Shown: positions 8,368 through 56,157 of the stretch, piece after piece | Layout: each line of letters starts with the position of its first letter | Numbering within the stretch: position 1 is the first letter of the stretch | Source: Kofleriaceae bacterium | GTDB lineage: Bacteria > Myxococcota_A > Polyangia > Haliangiales > Haliangiaceae | Reading direction: 5' to 3' | DNA: 64,000 nt | NCBI GenBank assembly: GCA_046597055.1 | Contig: JBKJLC010000178.1 | Coordinates: 1-64,000, forward strand | The notes under the pieces: generated by a model | Database searches by the model: none | What the model saw: only the letters and a program-made list of their open reading frames with translations | Told to the model about the DNA's origin: nothing | Translations under genes and position numbers: made by a program

Positions 8368-10728
8368 TCAACCGCCGCCGTAGTGGTGGCCGCCGTAGTG
8401 ACCGACGAAGCCGCCGTAGCCGCCCCCGCCGTAGGCGGCGGCGCCGAGCAGCTCGTCGAGCCGCTGGCGGGTGGCGTCGTCGACGTCGACGCCGCGCTGG
8501 CGGAGCTGCGAGGCCGCCGCCATCCGCACCTGGTCGGTCGCGCCGGTGCTGGCGAACACCCGCACCAGCGCGCGGTCGACGTCCTCGCCGCCGTTGTACG
8601 CCGCGTAGATCGCGGCCGCCGCCACCTGCTCGTCGCCGTCCTCGATCAGGCGCGACAGCGTCTGGCTCGCGCGCGGGTCGTCGAGCTGGCCGAGGGTCGA
8701 CACCGCGACCAGCCGCTCGTTGGGGTCGGTGGCCTGGCTGGCCGTCACCAGCGCGTCGACCGCGCGGGGCGAGCCGACCTGGGCGAGCGCGGCGAGCGCC
8801 TGCCCCTTCACGCCGGCGTCGCTGTCGCGGGTGAGCTGGATCAGCGCGTCGGTCGAGGCGTCGTCGCCGGCCTGGGCCAGCGCGCTCGCCGCCGCCGAGC
8901 GGACCTGAGCGTCCTGCGACCGCACCGCGTGCCGGAGCAGCCGCTGCGAGTCGGCCGAGCCCAGGCTCGACAGCGCCCACGCGGCGGTCCGCGCCAGCTC
9001 GGGATCGCTGCCGTTCAGCGCCGCCTCGGCGATCGCCAGGCCCTCGGCCGAGCCGGCGTTGACGAGCTGCTGGAGCGCCTGCGTGCGCAGCGCGGGCTTG
9101 CCGGTGCGGGCCACGTCGGCCAGGGCGCCGCGGACGTCGTCGGGGCTCCCGCTCTGTCCGAGCGCGCCGATCGCGGCCTGGGCCAGGGCCGCGTCGTCGC
9201 TCTTCAGCGCGGCCAGCAGCGCCGACCGCGCGTCCTCGGTGCCGAGCCGGCCGAGGATCCACGCCGCGCCCTGGGCCTCGTCGGACTTGCCCGCGAACAG
9301 CGCGTCCGCGAGCATCGCGGTCACCGCCGGATCGTCGGGCTGGGCGTTGGCCAGCATGTCGAGCGCGAAGGTCCGGGTCTGGCCGTGCCCGCGCTCGGCG
9401 ATGTGCAGCAAGGCCGCGCGGGCCTCGGGCGCGCCGGTGTCGGCGAGCATGCGCATGGCCTCGAGCTTGTCCTGGCGCGGGCCGTGCTCGGCCAGGTCGA
9501 TCGCGATCCCGATCGCGTCGGGGTTGCCGGCCTTGACCAGGCCGGGCAGCACGACCCGGCGGTCGGCCGCCTTGCCGGTGCGCGCGATCGCGAGCAGCGC
9601 CAGCTCGACGTCGGGGCTGCGCAGCTGCTGGAGCGCGTAGATCACCGACGAGCTGGTCGCGTCGCCGGCGAGCGCCGCCTCGATCAGGAGCTCGCGGGCG
9701 TCGTCGCCGCCGAGGTTGACCAGGGTCTGCGCGACGTTCGAGACCAGGTTGCGATCGCCCGAGCCCAGCAGCTGGCCGAGCGCCTTGATCGCCTCGGCGC
9801 CACCGATCTCGCCCATCGCCGAGATCGCGTTCCACTTGGCGAACTGCGGGCCGCGCTGGGCGAGGTCGATCAGCAGCGGCAGCACCGCGGGATCACCGGA
9901 GCGACCGAGCGCGGTCAGCGCCGCCGTGATCGTGTTGGCGTCGCCGGTCTTCACCAGCTTCGCGAGCATCGCGATCGTCTCGGGATCGCTCGGCTGCAGG
10001 TTGGCGAGCGCGACCGCGCGGATGCGAACGTCGGGCGCCATCGCCAGCTCGGCGAGCAGCTCCTGCGCACGCGGCGACGGGATCTGGGCCAGGGCGTAGA
10101 CCGCGGTCGAGGCGCCCTCGAAGTCACCGCTGCTGGCGATCCGCGCCAGCACCGCGGCCGCCTCGTCGCCGCCCATCTGGCCGAGCGCCTGGAGCGCCAT
10201 CGCCCGGGCCGGGTCGCCCCGGTCCTCGGCGATCGCGACCAGCGCGGCCCGCGCCCGCGGATCGGCGGCCGAGCCCATCGCGGTCACCGCCGCGTTGCGC
10301 ACCCGCGGCCGCGGGTCGTCGACGAGGTCGAGCAGGAGATCGATCGCACGCGTGGTGGCGATCCGGCCGATCGCGCCGATCACGGCCTCGGGGACGCCCG
10401 GGCGCGGGTCGTCGGCCAGCGGCGCCATGGCCGCGACCGCGTCGTCGGTGCCGACCGTGCCCAGCTTGTCGGCGATGATCGTGACCTGCTGTGGGCTCCG
10501 CGCCGCCAGCAGCTGGTCGATCAGCTTGGCCTCGGACAGGCCCAGCGAGGCGGCCGAGACCCGGACCGGGCGGCGCAGCTGCGAGGCGTCGCCCTTCTTG
10601 CCGGCCCGCCCCCCCTGCTGGACCGGCCCACCCGGGTCGGCGGGCCCCGACCACGCCGCGTAGCCGGCGACGACGGTGGTGAGGGCGAAGAAGACGGTGG
10701 CGAGACGGTAGCGGCCAAGGGTGGTCAA
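8368..10728 (-). CDS. HEAT-repeat protein with N-terminal membrane anchor
   Basis: Many Ala/Leu-rich HEAT-like repeats (e.g. DDPRPRVRNAAVTAMG); AGGAG upstream of TTG start. Confidence 0.85.
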   Translation of the reverse strand: MTTLGRYRLATVFFALTTVVAGYAAWSGPADPGGPVQQGGRAGKKGDASQLRRPVRVSAASLGLSEAKLIDQLLAARSPQQVTIIADKLGTVGTDDAVAAMAPLADDPRPGVPEAVIGAIGRIATTRAIDLLLDLVDDPRPRVRNAAVTAMGSAADPRARAALVAIAEDRGDPARAMALQALGQMGGDEAAAVLARIASSGDFEGASTAVYALAQIPSPRAQELLAELAMAPDVRIRAVALANLQPSDPETIAMLAKLVKTGDANTITAALTALGRSGDPAVLPLLIDLAQRGPQFAKWNAISAMGEIGGAEAIKALGQLLGSGDRNLVSNVAQTLVNLGGDDARELLIEAALAGDATSSSVIYALQQLRSPDVELALLAIARTGKAADRRVVLPGLVKAGNPDAIGIAIDLAEHGPRQDKLEAMRMLADTGAPEARAALLHIAERGHGQTRTFALDMLANAQPDDPAVTAMLADALFAGKSDEAQGAAWILGRLGTEDARSALLAALKSDDAALAQAAIGALGQSGSPDDVRGALADVARTGKPALRTQALQQLVNAGSAEGLAIAEAALNGSDPELARTAAWALSSLGSADSQRLLRHAVRSQDAQVRSAAASALAQAGDDASTDALIQLTRDSDAGVKGQALAALAQVGSPRAVDALVTASQATDPNERLVAVSTLGQLDDPRASQTLSRLIEDGDEQVAAAAIYAAYNGGEDVDRALVRVFASTGATDQVRMAAASQLRQRGVDVDDATRQRLDELLGAAAYGGGGYGGFVGHYGGHHYGGG

Positions 10729-34159: not shown

Positions 34160-38812
<4,653 letters not shown>

Positions 38813-38821
38813 CCCACCGCC

Positions 38822-39646
38822 ATGCCCGAAGGCGACAGCATCTTCCGGGTCGCGACCCAGCTCCGGCCCCACCTCCTCCCCACCCCGCTGACGTCGGTCA
38901 CGATCGCGGGCGCCACCCGCCACGACCTCGCCGGCGCGCAGGTCACCGCGGTCACCCCGCTCGGCAAGCACCTCCTGATCGATCTCGATCGCGGCTGGCA
39001 GCTCCGCATCCACCTCGGCATGAACGGCCGCTGGCGCCGGTTCCGCGCCGGCGGTGACGCCCCGCCACCGTCGGCCTCGCTCATCCTCACCACCGCGACC
39101 GACGGCTTCGCCTGCTTGCGGGCCAAGACCGTCGAGCTGTCGGCGGTCCGCGACCCGCGCCACGGCCGCGCGATCGCCGCGCTCGGCCCCGACGTCCTCG
39201 ACCCCGGGTTCGACCCCACCATCGCGGCCGCCCGGGCGCTCGCCACCGGCGGCGAGATCGGCCACGTCCTCCTCGATCAGCGGGTCTCCTGCGGCATCGG
39301 CAACGTCTACAAGTGCGAGGCGCTGTACGTGCAGCGCACCAGCCCGTTCATCGACGTCAGGGCCCTGCCACCCGACCAGGTCGCGGCGCTGTTCCTCGCC
39401 GCCAGCCGCCTGATGCGCGCCAACCTGACGCCCGGCATGCGCCGCACCCGCCCCGGCTTCCGCGAGAGCCGCTTCGACCGCTACCACGTCTATCGCCGCG
39501 CTGGCCGCCCGTGCGAGCGCTGCGGCACCCGCATCGCGACCGCGGTCCAGGGCGTCAACACCCCGCGCACCACCTACTACTGCCCGACCTGCCAGCCGAC
39601 GCCGCCCGGCATCACCCCACGGCGCCGCGGCCGGCGCCCGGTGTAG
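38822..39646 (+). CDS. Fpg/Nei family DNA glycosylase (Nei-like)
   Basis: MPEGD N-terminus, GKHL, HLGMNG, H2TH GIGNVY and zinc finger CERC...CPTC. Confidence 0.92.
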   Translation: MPEGDSIFRVATQLRPHLLPTPLTSVTIAGATRHDLAGAQVTAVTPLGKHLLIDLDRGWQLRIHLGMNGRWRRFRAGGDAPPPSASLILTTATDGFACLRAKTVELSAVRDPRHGRAIAALGPDVLDPGFDPTIAAARALATGGEIGHVLLDQRVSCGIGNVYKCEALYVQRTSPFIDVRALPPDQVAALFLAASRLMRANLTPGMRRTRPGFRESRFDRYHVYRRAGRPCERCGTRIATAVQGVNTPRTTYYCPTCQPTPPGITPRRRGRRPV

Positions 39647-45651: not shown

Positions 45652-46233
45652 CTACTTGTAGCCGCGGCCGAGCAGCATCTTGGCCGACGCCGCGAAGCTG
45701 TCCGCGCCGGGCACGTCCCACGCGAACGCGTCCGCCATCCGGGTGATGACGTTGAACGCGTAGCCGACCATGAGCGCCTCGATCACGCCCTCGCGCGAGA
45801 CCCCGGCCGCGAGCAGCGGCTTGAAGTCGGCCGCGGTCAGGCCGGCGTGGTCGCGCGTCACCTTGGTGAGGAGGCGCAGCGCCGCCTTCACCTTGTCGGG
45901 CAGGTCGGTCGCGTCCGGATCGACCAGCGCCGCCGCGACCTTGGCATCACCGAGCACCTTCGACGCGACCGCGCCGTGGGCCTTCGTTCAAAACTCGCAC
46001 TCGTTCGTCTTCGACACCCACGCCGCGAACAGCTCGCGCTCGCCGATCGACCACTCCGACGGCCCCCGCATGACCTCCTGGAACATCACCTTCATCGGCG
46101 CGCCGAACAGCTCGCTCCGGTAGGTCAAGGTCCGGACCACGTCGGGCGCGCGGTGGCCGCTCACCACCCGGATCATCGCGAAGAACAGCTTGGCCTTGAG
46201 GCCGCGCCCGCGCTCGATCGACGGCACCCGCAT
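45652..46233 (-). CDS. AhpD/carboxymuconolactone-decarboxylase-family peroxidase-like protein with in-frame TGA (candidate selenoprotein, CxxU)
   Basis: Reads ERELFAAWVSKTNECEF-TGA(45988-45990)-TKAHGAVA and stays in frame to TAG at 45652; TGA occupies the second Cys of CxxC. Alternative start GTG 46239. Confidence 0.8.
45961..45976 (-). promoter_or_regulatory. Putative bacterial SECIS hairpin
   Basis: CGGCGC-GGUC-GCGUCG stem-loop at +15..+30 counting from the U of UGA. Confidence 0.55.
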
Positions 46234-46240
46234 CGCCACG

Positions 46241-46576
46241 TCAGGCGCTCCTCGTCGGCGCGCCGGCCGGTTCGGCCACCGCCTCGTCGAGCGCGCGCAG
46301 CGCGGCGTCGAACTGCCGGGTCGCCTTGCCGACCGCGGCCGCCACCGTGATCTCGAACAGGCCGTCGTCGTCGAGCCCGGCCTTGCGGACGTCGGTGACC
46401 ATGGCGTCGTGCACCTTGTACGCCGCCGTCTGCACGGTGGCGACGTACTCGGCGATCGCGCCGGATGCGCCCTGACCGTCGTACGCGCGCCGGCGGGTGT
46501 CGCGATCGAGCACGCCGTCGCGGTCGAGAATCGCCGCGCCGATCGCAGCGCGGATGGATGCGTAGCGGTCCCCCAT
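46241..46576 (-). CDS. Small Cys-free CMD/AhpD-like helical protein
   Basis: AYKVHDAMVTDVRKAGLDDDGLFEITVAAA resembles the C-terminal half of AhpD-like proteins; abuts the downstream gene. Confidence 0.7.
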   Translation of the reverse strand: MGDRYASIRAAIGAAILDRDGVLDRDTRRRAYDGQGASGAIAEYVATVQTAAYKVHDAMVTDVRKAGLDDDGLFEITVAAAVGKATRQFDAALRALDEAVAEPAGAPTRSA

Positions 46577-46622: not shown

Positions 46623-48206
46623 TCAGCGCGACTGCCGCGCGATGCTCTCGTGCGCGAGCTTCCGCACGAAGACCTCGATGTTCTTCTTCAGCGCTGGATT
46701 CTCGCAGTGCGGCAAGGCGCGCCGCCAGATCTCGACCGCGCGCGCGACGTGCCCCTTCTTGTAATAGAGGTACGCGAGCCGGGTCATCGCCGGGAAGTAG
46801 CGCGGCTCGAGCTCGACCACCGTCTCGTACTCGTCGATCGCCTCCTCGAGACGCTGGCTCTTCTGCAGCAGGTTGGCCAGCGCGAACCGGATCTTGATCG
46901 CGGTCGGATCCTGGGCGACCCCGTCGCGCAGGAGCCGGATCGCGCCATCGACGTCGCCGGCCTGGTAGCGCTCGATCGCCCGCGCGAAGCCATCGTCGGT
47001 GCGCGGGCGCGCCCGCCGTCGGCCCAGCAGCTCGCGCACGATCCGCAGGAGCCGCGCGGTGTCGAGCGGCTTGGCCGCGTAGCCGTCGGCGCCGTAGCGC
47101 TCGAGCACCTCGGCGGTGACCCGCCCCGAGTCGATCACCGCCGACATCAAGATGACGCCGACGCCGTCGAGCCGCGGGGTCCGCTTGATCGCGCGGCACA
47201 GCCGGAAGCCGTCGACCCCGGGCAGCAAGATGTCGGCGATCACCACGTCGGGCGCCATGTCGCGCAGGACCGAGATCGCGTCGGTGCCCGAGGCCGCGGT
47301 CGCGACCTCGTAGCCGCGCGGCTCGATCTCCTTCACCAGCAGGTGGCGGGTCGCGAAGTCGTCGTCGACGATCAGCAGCCGCGGCAGGCCGCCGGTGGCG
47401 GGCACCGGCCCGCGCTCGAGCAGACGCGACAGCTCGGCGACGTCGTCCTCGGGCGGCGCCACCTCCGGCGCGGTGTCGCGCCCGGGTGACGCGCCGGCCC
47501 CGGTCACCGGCCACAGCGGGTCGCCGCCCTCGCCGATCGACGGCGCGCGCGGCGCCAGGAACGCCCCCGGGCTCGGCAGCTCGTCCTCGGCCGTCTCGAG
47601 GAACAGGTCGTCGACCTTGATCTCCTTGGTGACGTCCTCGATGACCGCCTGCTGGGCGCGGGCGCCGAGCTCGCCCTCGTCGAACGTGTCGTCGGGCGTC
47701 ACCAGCGCGACCCGCGGATGGCGAGTGGGCCCGTCGGCCGCGGCCTCGGGGCCGACCCAGCGCGCGTCGCCCCGTCCGCGCGCCGCGATCACGCCGCGGA
47801 TCGTGCGCGCGACCGTCACCGCCAGCGCGACACACATCGTGACGTGCAGGCCACGTCGCGAGAACAGCGCCTCGGCGTGGCTGGCGACCTCGAGCGGCCG
47901 CGCCGCCGCCACGTACACCGTCCCGCCCTCGGCGCAGACCGGCAGCATCTGCATGCGGCGCAGCAGGTCAGGCGAGATCCCGTCGATCAGGCCGGCGTCG
48001 ATCACGCACTCGTCGAGCACGACCGCGGGCCGGCCGAACGCGACGGTCAGCGCCTCGGCCAGCGTCCGCTCGTTGGCGTAGCCGAGCATGTAACAGACCG
48101 ACGCGATCGGTAGCCGCTCCGACTGGCGCGCCAGCACGTCGGCCAGCGAGCTCGCGTCGTCCAGCACCCCCATGTCGAGGAGGAGCTTCCCGAGGAGCGC
48201 GGCCAC
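46623..48206 (-). CDS. Response regulator with N-terminal MshEN/T2SSE-N-like domain and C-terminal TPR
   Basis: LLGKLLLDMGVL N-terminus; REC LIVDDD...ADILLP...MSA...KP; TPR helices. Confidence 0.8.
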   Translation of the reverse strand: MAALLGKLLLDMGVLDDASSLADVLARQSERLPIASVCYMLGYANERTLAEALTVAFGRPAVVLDECVIDAGLIDGISPDLLRRMQMLPVCAEGGTVYVAAARPLEVASHAEALFSRRGLHVTMCVALAVTVARTIRGVIAARGRGDARWVGPEAAADGPTRHPRVALVTPDDTFDEGELGARAQQAVIEDVTKEIKVDDLFLETAEDELPSPGAFLAPRAPSIGEGGDPLWPVTGAGASPGRDTAPEVAPPEDDVAELSRLLERGPVPATGGLPRLLIVDDDFATRHLLVKEIEPRGYEVATAASGTDAISVLRDMAPDVVIADILLPGVDGFRLCRAIKRTPRLDGVGVILMSAVIDSGRVTAEVLERYGADGYAAKPLDTARLLRIVRELLGRRRARPRTDDGFARAIERYQAGDVDGAIRLLRDGVAQDPTAIKIRFALANLLQKSQRLEEAIDEYETVVELEPRYFPAMTRLAYLYYKKGHVARAVEIWRRALPHCENPALKKNIEVFVRKLAHESIARQSR

Positions 48207-48619
48207 GGTCCGAAGCTAACACACCGCACCTGAGGCGCCGGGCACGTGCTCGGCGCCGGTTCGGCTCCATGAGTGGATCGGCGGGCTCGATAAGGTCCCA
48301 GAATCACGCCGGTTTTTCCGGTCCCGGTGACGACTCGAGCAGCCAGTCAAAACGCCACACGGCAGCGTCGCAGCCGGGCTGGCTGCAACGCGCCAGATCT
48401 GCTGTGCTATCCTGGCAAAATCCAATCTCGCTGCACGCTCTCGCCGCGCCACGCTGTCACAGCGGCCCTCGGCAGACGCAGGCGCAAGACGGACGCAACT
48501 GCGCGCAGGTTCTGAACCAATACTCGTCCTCTACGCGCAGCGTCACGCGGCACCACCCTTGCTTGATCAAATGCGATCGCGGAGACGAGATCCGCACCGC
48601 CACTGGAGTGACCTACGAC

Positions 48620-49105
48620 ATGAGCGAATTCAAGATCGGCGACAAGGCTGTGTACCCCGCGCATGGCGTCGTCGAGGTGCAGGGGGTTGATACCAAGGAG
48701 ATCAACGGCTCCACGTGTGCTTTCTACGTGCTCCGCGTCCTCGAGAACCAGATGCAGATCATGGTTCCGAAGGCCAAGGCGGAGCAGGTCGGCCTTCGCG
48801 CCGTCGTGTCGATGCAGGAGGCCACCGAGGTGTTCGACGTGCTGCGCGATCAGGATGTCCACATCGACAAGCAGACCTGGAACCGCCGCTATCGCGGTTT
48901 CATGGAGAAGATCAAGACCGGCTCGCTCTTCGATGTCGCCGAGGTCTATCGCGACCTGTTCCGGCTCAAGAGCACCAAGAGCCTGTCGTTCGGCGAGCGC
49001 CGCATGCTCGAGACCGCCCGGATGCTGATGGTGAAGGAGCTCGCGGTGGCCCGACGCTGGACCGAGGCGAAGGTCGAGCAGGAGCTCGAGAAGGCCTGCG
49101 GCTAA
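48620..49105 (+). CDS. cdnL: CarD/CdnL-family RNA polymerase-binding protein
   Basis: FKIGDKAVYPAHGV, WNRRYR and LSFGERRML motifs; no HMGA-like tail. Confidence 0.88.
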   Translation: MSEFKIGDKAVYPAHGVVEVQGVDTKEINGSTCAFYVLRVLENQMQIMVPKAKAEQVGLRAVVSMQEATEVFDVLRDQDVHIDKQTWNRRYRGFMEKIKTGSLFDVAEVYRDLFRLKSTKSLSFGERRMLETARMLMVKELAVARRWTEAKVEQELEKACG

Positions 49106-49792: not shown

Positions 49793-50176
49793 TTGCAGCT
49801 CCAGGCCTATCTGCCAGCCGGGCTGGCCATCCTTTGTACCCTCCTGTTTTGTGGGCTGTTCGTGGCCCTCGCGGTGTTCGTCGGCCCGAAGTCGGTGAAC
49901 CCCGAAAAACTCAAGCCGTTCGAGTGCGGCTCCGAACCAATCGGGAGCCCCCGCGGTCGCTACTCCGTGAAGTTCTACCAGGTCGCGATCCTCTTCCTGG
50001 TGTTCGACATCGAGGCGGCGTTCATGTACCCGTGGGCCCAGCTGTATGCCAAGCTTTCGCTCACACCGGCCGGGACGGTGAGCATCTTCGGCTTCGTCGA
50101 GATGCTCATGTTCGTCGCGATCCTTGTGGTCGCCCTGACCTACGTGTGGCGCAAGAAGGCCATCGGTTGGGACTGA
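49793..50176 (+). CDS. nuoA: NADH-quinone oxidoreductase subunit A
   Basis: PFECG and FLVFDIE motifs; three TMs. Confidence 0.95.
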   Translation: MQLQAYLPAGLAILCTLLFCGLFVALAVFVGPKSVNPEKLKPFECGSEPIGSPRGRYSVKFYQVAILFLVFDIEAAFMYPWAQLYAKLSLTPAGTVSIFGFVEMLMFVAILVVALTYVWRKKAIGWD

Positions 50177-50210
50177 GTCCCCGCCGACGACAAACCCCCG
50201 GAGTACCACC

Positions 50211-50720
<510 letters not shown>

Positions 50721-50722
50721 GC

Positions 50723-51277
<555 letters not shown>

Positions 51278-51310
51278 GCGCCGCCCCCGAGCGACGGAAA
51301 AGAGTCAGAC

Positions 51311-52552
<1,242 letters not shown>

Positions 52553-52559
52553 GGCTGTC

Positions 52560-54206
<1,647 letters not shown>

Positions 54207-54224
54207 GCGAACCGAGCCAATACG

Positions 54225-55439
<1,215 letters not shown>

Positions 55440-55461
55440 CCGCGGGGACGGAGTAAGGACG

Positions 55462-56157
55462 ATGGCGACTACCCACGGTCACGCTCACGGGGATCATGAC
55501 GACGCCCACGCGTCCGCAGGGCCCAAGGTCCTCGCGGTCTCCAAGGTGAGCCCTCGGGTCCGGACGATCGCGGTCAAGCGTCCGACCGCCGAGGACGCGA
55601 CCTACCTGGAGGCCACCCGCACCGGCCTCGGCATCACGCTAAAGCACTTCATGAAGAACCTGTTCGGTCGCCGCCGGTCGGTGGCGGCGCTGAACAGCGG
55701 TGGCGCGACCACGGGGCCGTTCCACAACGAGATCGAGACGATCCAGTATCCGGAAGAGAAGGTCGTCTATCCGGAGCGGTTCCGCGGCCTGCATCGCCTG
55801 ATGCAGCGCGACGACGGCACCGTGCGCTGCGTCGCGTGCATGTGCTGCCCGACCGTGTGCCCGGCCAACTGCATCACGATCATCCCCGAGGACGCGGGCG
55901 ACGGCACCGTCGAGAAGCGCCCGGCGGTGTTCGAGATCGACGAGCTGCGGTGCGTGGTCTGTGGGCTCTGCGTCGAGGCGTGTCCGTGCGATGCGATCCG
56001 CATGGACTCCGGAGTCCACGCAGCGCCGGTCGAGTCGCGCGGCGAGGCGATCATGACGAAGGATCTGATGCTGGGCCTGTCGAAGAAGGTCGGGAAGAAC
56101 CCGACGTCGACGGCAACGCAGGGCGGTGAAGGTCCCGACTGGCACGACCCGCACTGA
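55462..56157 (+). CDS. nuoI: NADH-quinone oxidoreductase subunit I
   Basis: TIQYPEE, RFRG and two 4Fe-4S motifs CVACMCCPTVCP / CVVCGLCVEACP. Confidence 0.93.
   Translation: MATTHGHAHGDHDDAHASAGPKVLAVSKVSPRVRTIAVKRPTAEDATYLEATRTGLGITLKHFMKNLFGRRRSVAALNSGGATTGPFHNEIETIQYPEEKVVYPERFRGLHRLMQRDDGTVRCVACMCCPTVCPANCITIIPEDAGDGTVEKRPAVFEIDELRCVVCGLCVEACPCDAIRMDSGVHAAPVESRGEAIMTKDLMLGLSKKVGKNPTSTATQGGEGPDWHDPH

What the first reader, a model, noticed from the sequence alone, without database searches (positions are those of the whole stretch)
45652..46239. Hidden CxxU selenoprotein candidate in an AhpD/CMD-family peroxidase-like gene
Seen: the ORF track splits this gene in two. On the minus strand it reads ...WVSKTNECEF-TGA-TKAHGAVASK... 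and continues in the same frame for ~110 codons of AhpD-like sequence. Established: AhpD/CMD peroxidase-related proteins carry VSxxNxCxxCxxxH, so the TGA falls exactly on the second redox Cys, and AhpD-like selenoproteins are a known but sparsely characterised class. Inference: the UGA is recoded as selenocysteine, giving a ~193-aa CxxU enzyme that standard annotation would call a pseudogene or two fragments.
Basis: partly seen in the sequence, partly recalled or inferred. Interest (0 to 1): 0.88.

Follow-up and report, generated by a model that had tools for sequence, protein, structure and literature searches.

The report
AhpD-like selenoprotein with cysteine-less partner gene
The apparent stop codon in the middle of this small redox-enzyme gene almost certainly encodes selenocysteine, so it is one intact gene of a selenoprotein class known since 2005 that gene callers cut in two, and it nearly always sits directly behind a small related gene that lacks the active site.

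Summary
Confirmed. Window 45652-46239(-) is one frame with a single TGA (codon 84, C-E-F-U). The genome has selA, selB, tRNA-Sec and a TGA-containing selD. Of 48 orthologous loci, 41 have TGA at this column and 7 have Cys; 38 of 40 other TGA carriers have selA, the other two have other Sec genes; both genomes lacking selA and selB carry Cys. Five degenerate codons 3' of the TGA are frozen in 31 of 31 TGA genes and form a hairpin with a GGUC loop. The model has the AhpD fold with Glu69/Cys81/Sec84/His88 at AhpD spacing. AhpD-like CxxU selenoproteins are known since 2005, so this is a new member of a known kind, in a subfamily below every NCBIfam cut-off and split by annotators. A cysteine-less paralogue of the C-terminal half lies directly upstream in 47 of 48 loci and is sometimes fused; binding is untested. 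Sec incorporation and substrate are inferred. This scan has reported the same class, and the partner, on other genomes.

The parts
45652..46239 (-). AhpD-like selenoprotein gene, 195 aa from GTG 46239 (193 aa from ATG 46233), one in-frame TGA
   Evidence: Pfam CMD 28.7 bits over cut-off 23; TIGR01926 68.5 bits under cut-off 81.8; model pLDDT 94.6, Foldseek 3c1l/6k40 TM 0.75-0.79
45988..45990 (-). In-frame TGA, codon 84, predicted selenocysteine (second position of C81-E-F-U84)
   Evidence: TGA in 41, Cys in 7 of 48 orthologous loci; Cys in 49 of 49 aligned full-length homologues; same letters in contigs of X1, X2, X3
45961..45976 (-). SECIS-type apical hairpin, 6-bp stem with GGUC loop, 15-30 nt from the U of UGA (codons 88-93)
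   Evidence: degenerate codons 89-93 invariant among the 31 TGA genes that keep the residue, against mean 0.65 and max 0.90 for 51 comparable codons elsewhere; 90.3% of cells paired, 2 pairs with double changes
45976..46035 (-). Catalytic helix hairpin: Glu69, Asn79, Cys81, Phe83, Sec84, His88
   Evidence: E69, N79, position 84 and H88 invariant in 49 of 49 homologues, C81 in 45 of 49; spacing equals Glu118/Cys130/Cys133/His137 of M. tuberculosis AhpD and Glu36/Cys48/Cys51/His55 of PA0269 (PMC3141380 passages)
46241..46576 (-). Partner gene, 111 aa, no cysteine; distant paralogue of the non-catalytic C-terminal half of the AhpD fold; ends 1 nt before the GTG
   Evidence: directly upstream in 47 of 48 loci; hhalign to the main family 87%, E 3.9e-6; profile hits PDB 2oyo residues 122-168 at E 6e-7; fused in P0038, P0060, P0075, P0077

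Best explanation
One intact selenoprotein gene. Shown: single in-frame TGA at the second Cys of the AhpD CxxC motif, complete selA/selB/selC/selD set, a downstream hairpin under nucleotide-level selection, AhpD fold with the relay residues in place. Inferred from established bacterial Sec decoding: SelB-GTP-Sec-tRNA binds the hairpin's G-containing loop and inserts Sec at the UGA, giving a 193-195 aa C81-x-x-U84 enzyme; without selenium the product would be an 81-83 aa fragment. Inferred from AhpD chemistry: Glu69-His88 activate the position-84 selenol, which attacks a peroxide, reactive-chlorine species or a partner disulfide; Cys81 resolves it to a selenenylsulfide that a cellular reductant (lipoamide-type by analogy) recycles. 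The co-translated cysteine-less paralogue most likely co-assembles with it as a non-catalytic subunit (about even odds; inferred from gene order, coupling and fusions only). The enzyme is probably not the dedicated AhpC reductase, since the genome has a separate AhpC-AhpD(CxxC) pair.
For: Sequence; selA E 6.5e-140, selB over cut-off, tRNA-Sec 70.4 bits, selD with one TGA; 41 TGA / 7 Cys of 48 loci in samples from three phyla; selA in 38 of 40 other TGA carriers, G134 has selB, G001 has tRNA-Sec and a TGA-selD; the only two carriers with neither selA nor selB (G229, G622) have Cys; frozen synonymous sites; the C-terminal half stays conserved (mean identity 0.49 vs 0.59 before the TGA); 97 of the 120 best short database hits end exactly at xCx[FYW]; fold; four Cys-form homologues lost the first Cys and none the second; a second likely selenoprotein of the genome has a hairpin at a similar distance.
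Against: No direct evidence of expression or selenium. The 91-nt region is no more stable than shuffles (z 0.64) and its minimum-energy fold does not contain the hairpin; RNAalifold found no consensus structure; covariation is thin (0.133, against 0.125 for one slid control); a crude hairpin-plus-motif scan passes 63 of 10572 sites in this GC-rich genome; the selD gene shows no clear hairpin of the same type in a simple fold. selA is common among relatives anyway (34 of 41), the baseline in the two other phyla was not measured, kin are not independent, and 5 of 7 Cys-form genomes also have selA and selB. The His132-equivalent is Phe. Substrate and reductant are unknown.
Confidence: 0.95

Rival explanations
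1. Pseudogene or sequencing error: a Cys codon mutated to a stop.
For: TGC to TGA is one change; TGA is the commonest stop in this genome (2810 of 3722 long ORFs).
Against: Same TGA in 41 loci down to 36% identity with no second stop in the 31 examined; other samples' contigs agree; synonymous freeze downstream. The one frameshifted locus seen is a Cys form (L052).
Confidence: 0.01
2. A real stop: two separate short proteins (83 aa and 101 aa) that reassemble.
For: An in-frame GTG at codon 95 gives a 101-aa ORF; databases hold both halves.
Against: The split would cut the catalytic helix and leave codons 84-94, including invariant His88, untranslated, yet these are the most conserved; no Shine-Dalgarno-like run before codon 95; Cys orthologues are single chains.
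Confidence: 0.015
3. UGA is read as Cys or Trp (tRNA-Sec-like Cys insertion or leaky read-through) instead of Sec.
For: One database fusion (P0038) shows Trp at this column (its codon could not be checked, it may be a gene caller's reading of TGA); the codon before UGA is unusually TTT (22 of 30).
Against: Canonical tRNA-Sec, selA, selB and a TGA-selD are present; TGA form not seen in genomes without Sec genes; TGA is the main stop codon of the genome.
Confidence: 0.025
4. Sec is inserted, but the enzyme is not an antioxidant: it is a reductive dehalogenase or other small-molecule reductase, as the AhpD-fold debrominase Bmp8, with the partner shaping a substrate pocket.
For: Bmp8 is a fold and profile hit (6ohj E 2.3e-3, TM 0.69; 6ohi E 1.2e-4); no redox partner gene is adjacent; the genome has a separate AhpC-AhpD pair.
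Against: Much closer matches are peroxidase-related AhpD-like proteins (E 4e-8, 27% identity), one of which (DR1765, the 6k40 organism's AhpD-like protein) protects against H2O2 (PMC8945050 passages); the neighbourhood shows no conserved pathway gene beyond the partner (one search tested only the window's own neighbours).
Confidence: 0.12

Closest known systems
AhpD-like (1) selenoprotein family, COG2128 / TIGR01926, CxxU (PMC1088965; PMC2398784; PMC13188914)
   Same: CxxU at the same motif (E-x11-C-x-x-U-x3-H), similar length, TIGR01926 is the best NCBIfam hit (E 6e-19).
   Different: Under the TIGR01926 cut-off (68.5 vs 81.8; the Cys homologue P0002 64.5). Subfamily words GERE and CEFU were not found in the 2008 supplement's sequence file, and RGPS and HGAVA once each in unrelated proteins. 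No partner gene mentioned in the passages seen.
CMD-domain / AhpD-like 2 / NF041238 alkylhydroperoxidase-related (seleno)protein
   Same: CxxU in a PF02627 domain; the window protein matches positions 222-331 of the 357-position model and one partner homologue weakly matches positions 35-115 (E 0.002), so that family looks like a one-chain version of non-catalytic half plus catalytic half.
   Different: 38.2 bits against a cut-off of 175; here the two parts are usually separate genes; the natural fusions also stay far below the cut-off.
Solved AhpD-like proteins Mlr4105 (3c1l), D. radiodurans AhpD-like (6k40), 2oyo, 2pfx, 2prr
   Same: Same fold, TM 0.72-0.79, 22-27% identity; profile E down to 5.6e-26.
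   Different: Cys enzymes; described oligomers are made of one chain type (PMC3141380 passages).
M. tuberculosis AhpD and P. aeruginosa PA0269
   Same: Relay residues at identical spacing (PMC3141380).
   Different: Weak fold match to AhpD proper (E 0.3-0.6, TM 0.4-0.5); His132 position is Phe; no adjacent ahpC; Sec in place of the second Cys.
TIGR04029 (CMD domain, Avi_7170) with TIGR04030 (Avi_7169)
   Same: A CMD protein and an AhpD-domain protein with consecutive locus numbers; partners weakly hit TIGR04029 (L036 E 0.0015) and the main protein TIGR04030 (E 2.7e-6). That TIGR04029 lacks the CxxC and forms a gene pair is recalled, not tested.
   Different: All scores far below both cut-offs; different subfamily.

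Membership tests
Bacterial selenoprotein | In-frame UGA aligned with a conserved Cys of homologues | tested here: met
   Cys in 49 of 49 aligned homologues; 41 TGA / 7 Cys loci
Bacterial selenoprotein | selA, selB, selC, selD in the genome | tested here: met
   all over the family cut-offs
Bacterial selenoprotein | SECIS-type stem-loop just 3' of UGA with G in a small apical loop | tested here: met
   frozen synonymous sites and 6-bp stem with GGUC loop; energy-based tests alone were negative
Bacterial selenoprotein | Selenium actually incorporated | not testable with these tools
   needs 75Se or mass spectrometry
Pfam CMD (PF02627) | Score over gathering threshold | tested here: met
   28.7 vs 23 bits
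TIGR01926 peroxidase-related enzyme | Score over curated cut-off | tested here: not met
   68.5 vs 81.8 bits; only the two-part fusions pass (103.7, 100.2)
NF041238 AhpD_rel_CFYUT | Score over curated cut-off | tested here: not met
   38.2 vs 175 bits
AhpD-like superfamily | All-helical AhpD fold | tested here: met
   pLDDT 94.6; Foldseek E 4e-8, TM 0.75-0.79
AhpD-like superfamily | Relay Glu, Cys-x-x-Cys, His | tested here: met
   E69, C81, U84, H88 at the spacing given in PMC3141380; His132 position is Phe, a position that paper calls variable
AhpC-AhpD system (AhpD proper) | Gene next to ahpC | tested here: not met
   neighbours are the partner, a REC-TPR gene and a kinase; the genome's AhpC-AhpD pair is on C81
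AhpD-like superfamily | Peroxidase or disulfide-reductase activity | not testable with these tools
   needs an assay
GOS 'AhpD-like 1' set (PMC2398784) | Subfamily represented among the published sequences | tested here: inconclusive
   shared core motif visible in supplement file 3, but exact subfamily words not found; word search only, no alignment

The most novel reading that the evidence does not exclude
A widespread, uncatalogued subfamily (about a thousand short database clusters, most of the best ones cut at the UGA) in which the selenoenzyme works as an obligate hetero-oligomer with a cysteine-less half-paralogue made from a translationally coupled gene; the partner would be made regardless of selenium while the catalytic chain is made only when Sec is available, and the complex may act on a substrate other than peroxides.
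Probability: 0.4. Interest if true: 0.5.

Novelty: new member of a known kind. Interest (0 to 1): 0.3.

Why it matters
For annotation: a search for short relatives returned 1010 clusters, and 97 of the best 120 end exactly at the residue before the UGA, so many public 'hypothetical protein' pairs, including in Nannocystis records, are one selenoprotein for which NCBIfam has no passing model. For biology: no AhpD-like selenoenzyme assay was found in the papers seen, and this family offers natural Sec and Cys versions in cultured myxobacteria-related hosts, plus a partner subunit that would be unusual for AhpD-like oligomers. The recoding mechanism itself is standard.

Tried and rejected
Energy folding of the 91 nt after the TGA: not better than shuffles, hairpin not in the minimum-energy fold. 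RNAalifold: no consensus pairs. Genome-wide motif-plus-hairpin scan: 63 of 10572 sites, mostly off-frame chance, so not used as evidence. Direct BLASTP of partner vs main protein: nothing; only profiles detect the paralogy. Idea that the partner's N-terminus is a relic of the MRGPS-ERE helix: 0.2% probability, rejected. Single-sequence model of the partner: pLDDT 64, fold search uninformative. Search for longer proteins containing the partner: none found, weak evidence since fusions are known. Atlas: partner clusters are unnamed. No model of the two proteins together was obtained, so binding is open. No RNA holder listed. Promoter/terminator scan: nothing informative. The upstream MshEN-REC-TPR gene was seen beside the pair only in same-genus loci (9 of 12 besides the window's own, 1.5-kb flanks) and the downstream kinase is not conserved there: both rejected as parts. 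Paper searches for a description of the partner or of Myxococcota AhpD selenoproteins found none; subscription papers and most supplements were not searched.

Full report
Observation. The minus strand of 45652-46239 reads as 195 codons and a TAG with one internal stop, TGA at codon 84 (45990-45988), in NECEF*TKAH. Contigs from three runs of one study (X1 may be the source; X2 and X3 are other samples) span the codon without a difference (contigs only). The closest named relative is a Kofleriaceae record at 81% identity, so the host is inferred to be a myxobacterial relative from soil.

Machinery. The genome holds selA (E 6.5e-140), selB (307 bits, over cut-off), tRNA-Sec (70.4 bits) and selD, itself with one in-frame TGA. 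A Prx-like gene with UxxC and a similar hairpin lies on C30. TGA is otherwise the main stop codon, so general reassignment is excluded.

Conservation. Genome searches covered 41 relatives (25 with a match), 301 genomes of the phylum (14), and 251 genomes each from the phyla of an Acidobacteriota and a Dormibacteraceae record (5 and 10), plus 3 loci. Keeping matches at E < 1e-25 and dropping duplicates (L050 repeats L021; L067, L071, L072 repeat L052 and L051) and weaker paralogues (L040-L049) leaves 48 loci including the window's: 41 TGA, 7 Cys (31/4, 10/3). None of the 31 TGA loci has a second stop in the match. Among 49 full-length homologues that I picked from the 77 hits, the column is Cys in all 49; one fusion left out of that alignment, P0038, shows Trp. 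A search among short proteins gave 1010 hits; of the best 120, 97 end at xCx[FYW], 21 end like the C-terminal half and 2 fit neither pattern.

Link to the Sec trait. Of 40 other TGA carriers, 38 have selA (17 of 18; 11 of 12; 10 of 10). G134 lacks a selA match but has selB; G001, in 1770 contigs, lacks selA and selB matches but has tRNA-Sec and a TGA-selD. The two carriers with neither selA nor selB, G229 and G622, have the Cys form. Caveats: 5 of 7 Cys-form genomes are Sec-positive, selA is in 34 of 41 relatives regardless, and kin are not independent.

SECIS. Positions 15-30 from the U form a 6-bp stem with a GGUC loop. Energy tests alone do not support it and such hairpins are common by chance here. 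The evidence is selection on nucleotides: the five degenerate codons 89-93 are each 100% invariant among the TGA genes that keep the residue (26-31 of 31), whereas 51 comparable codons elsewhere average 0.65 and never exceed 0.90; the four Cys-form genes vary there. On 36 rows (31 orthologues, 5 paralogues) 90.3% of cells pair, with two pairs showing double changes; covariation is modest. A small apical loop with G is the feature described for bacterial SECIS elements (PMC1088965, passages).

Protein. Pfam CMD passes; no NCBIfam model passes, TIGR01926 being closest. The model (pLDDT 94.6) matches AhpD-like structures 3c1l, 6k40, 2pfx, 2prr, 2oyo at TM 0.72-0.79 (profile search). Glu69, Cys81, Sec84 and His88 have the spacing of the AhpD proton relay (PMC3141380, passages). 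Four homologues have Ser/Thr at 81 and none lost position 84, which suggests 84 is the attacking residue; that the second Cys is the nucleophile in M. tuberculosis AhpD is recalled, not checked. Related proteins act against H2O2 (PMC8945050, passages) or HOCl (PMC9751292, passages). The genome has its own AhpC-AhpD(CxxC) pair on C81, so this gene likely has another target.

Partner. A 111-aa cysteine-free ORF (46241-46576) ends 1 nt before the GTG. A homologue lies directly upstream in 35 of 35 loci, mostly overlapping or abutting the start, and in 12 of 13 further loci (not found at L070), with Sec and Cys forms alike. It is a distant paralogue of the C-terminal, non-catalytic half. Two full fusions (P0038, P0060) and two fusion fragments ending at CxF (P0075, P0077) exist. 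These point to a shared complex, but no model or experiment tests binding. The arrangement has weak precedents: partners touch TIGR04029 and the N-part of NF041238.

Known or new. CxxU AhpD-like and CMD-like selenoproteins were predicted in 2005 (27 and 4 sequences; PMC1088965, passages), numbered 299 and 70 in the 2008 ocean survey (PMC2398784, passages), appear in genome surveys (PMC1794560, passages) and are tabulated in a 2026 review (PMC13188914, passages). Word searches in the 2008 supplement's sequence file did not find this subfamily's signature words (one file of four, exact words only), and six paper searches found no account of the partner. Earlier notes of this scan report the same class on eight other stretches, two with the partner; I had found the partner before reading them, and they are not independent support.

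Verdict. Real, intact selenoprotein gene (0.95); new member of a known kind, in a mis-annotated subfamily; the open point worth a bench test is the cysteine-less partner. Interest 0.3.

Noticed in passing
G000:C30:9680-10057 (+), TGA at 9797: Second likely selenoprotein in this genome: AhpC-TSA domain with RGFY-U-HSC (UxxC) and a hairpin at a similar distance from the TGA.
   Followed up: partly
G000:C81:7872-8943 (+): Canonical AhpC followed by an AhpD with CESC.
   Followed up: partly
window 45991-45993 (-): The Phe codon just before the TGA is the rare TTT in 22 of 30 TGA orthologues, against 23 of 268 elsewhere in those genes and 829 of 21942 genome-wide; but 2 of 3 Phe-bearing Cys forms also use TTT. 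Unexplained: context selection or ancestry.
   Followed up: partly
L040-L043, L046, L047: More distant AhpD-like paralogues in relatives also have TGA at this column, several with a different hairpin (8-bp stem, 3-nt loop), i.e. a second Sec subfamily.
   Followed up: no
P0017, P0030, P0032, P0041: Cys-form homologues with SxxC or TxxC in place of CxxC.
   Followed up: no
G005:C7:345717-346801 and G010:C782:7732-8828: selA matches come in two abutting pieces, a frameshift or assembly error.
   Followed up: no
L052:3001-3580: A Cys-form orthologue is frameshifted near residue 96, and its partner is in frame with the N-terminal part.
   Followed up: no
window 46623-48206 (-): MshEN + receiver + TPR protein upstream of the pair; syntenic only within the genus.
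   Followed up: partly
window 34160-38812 (+) and 38822-39646 (+): Lhr-like helicase followed by an Fpg/Nei-like glycosylase (names from recalled motifs); the helicase ends in a long (A)n(AD)n low-complexity run.
   Followed up: no
window 49793-56157 (+): Start of a complex I (nuo) operon, and a CarD-like gene at 48269-49105 (names from recalled motifs).
   Followed up: no
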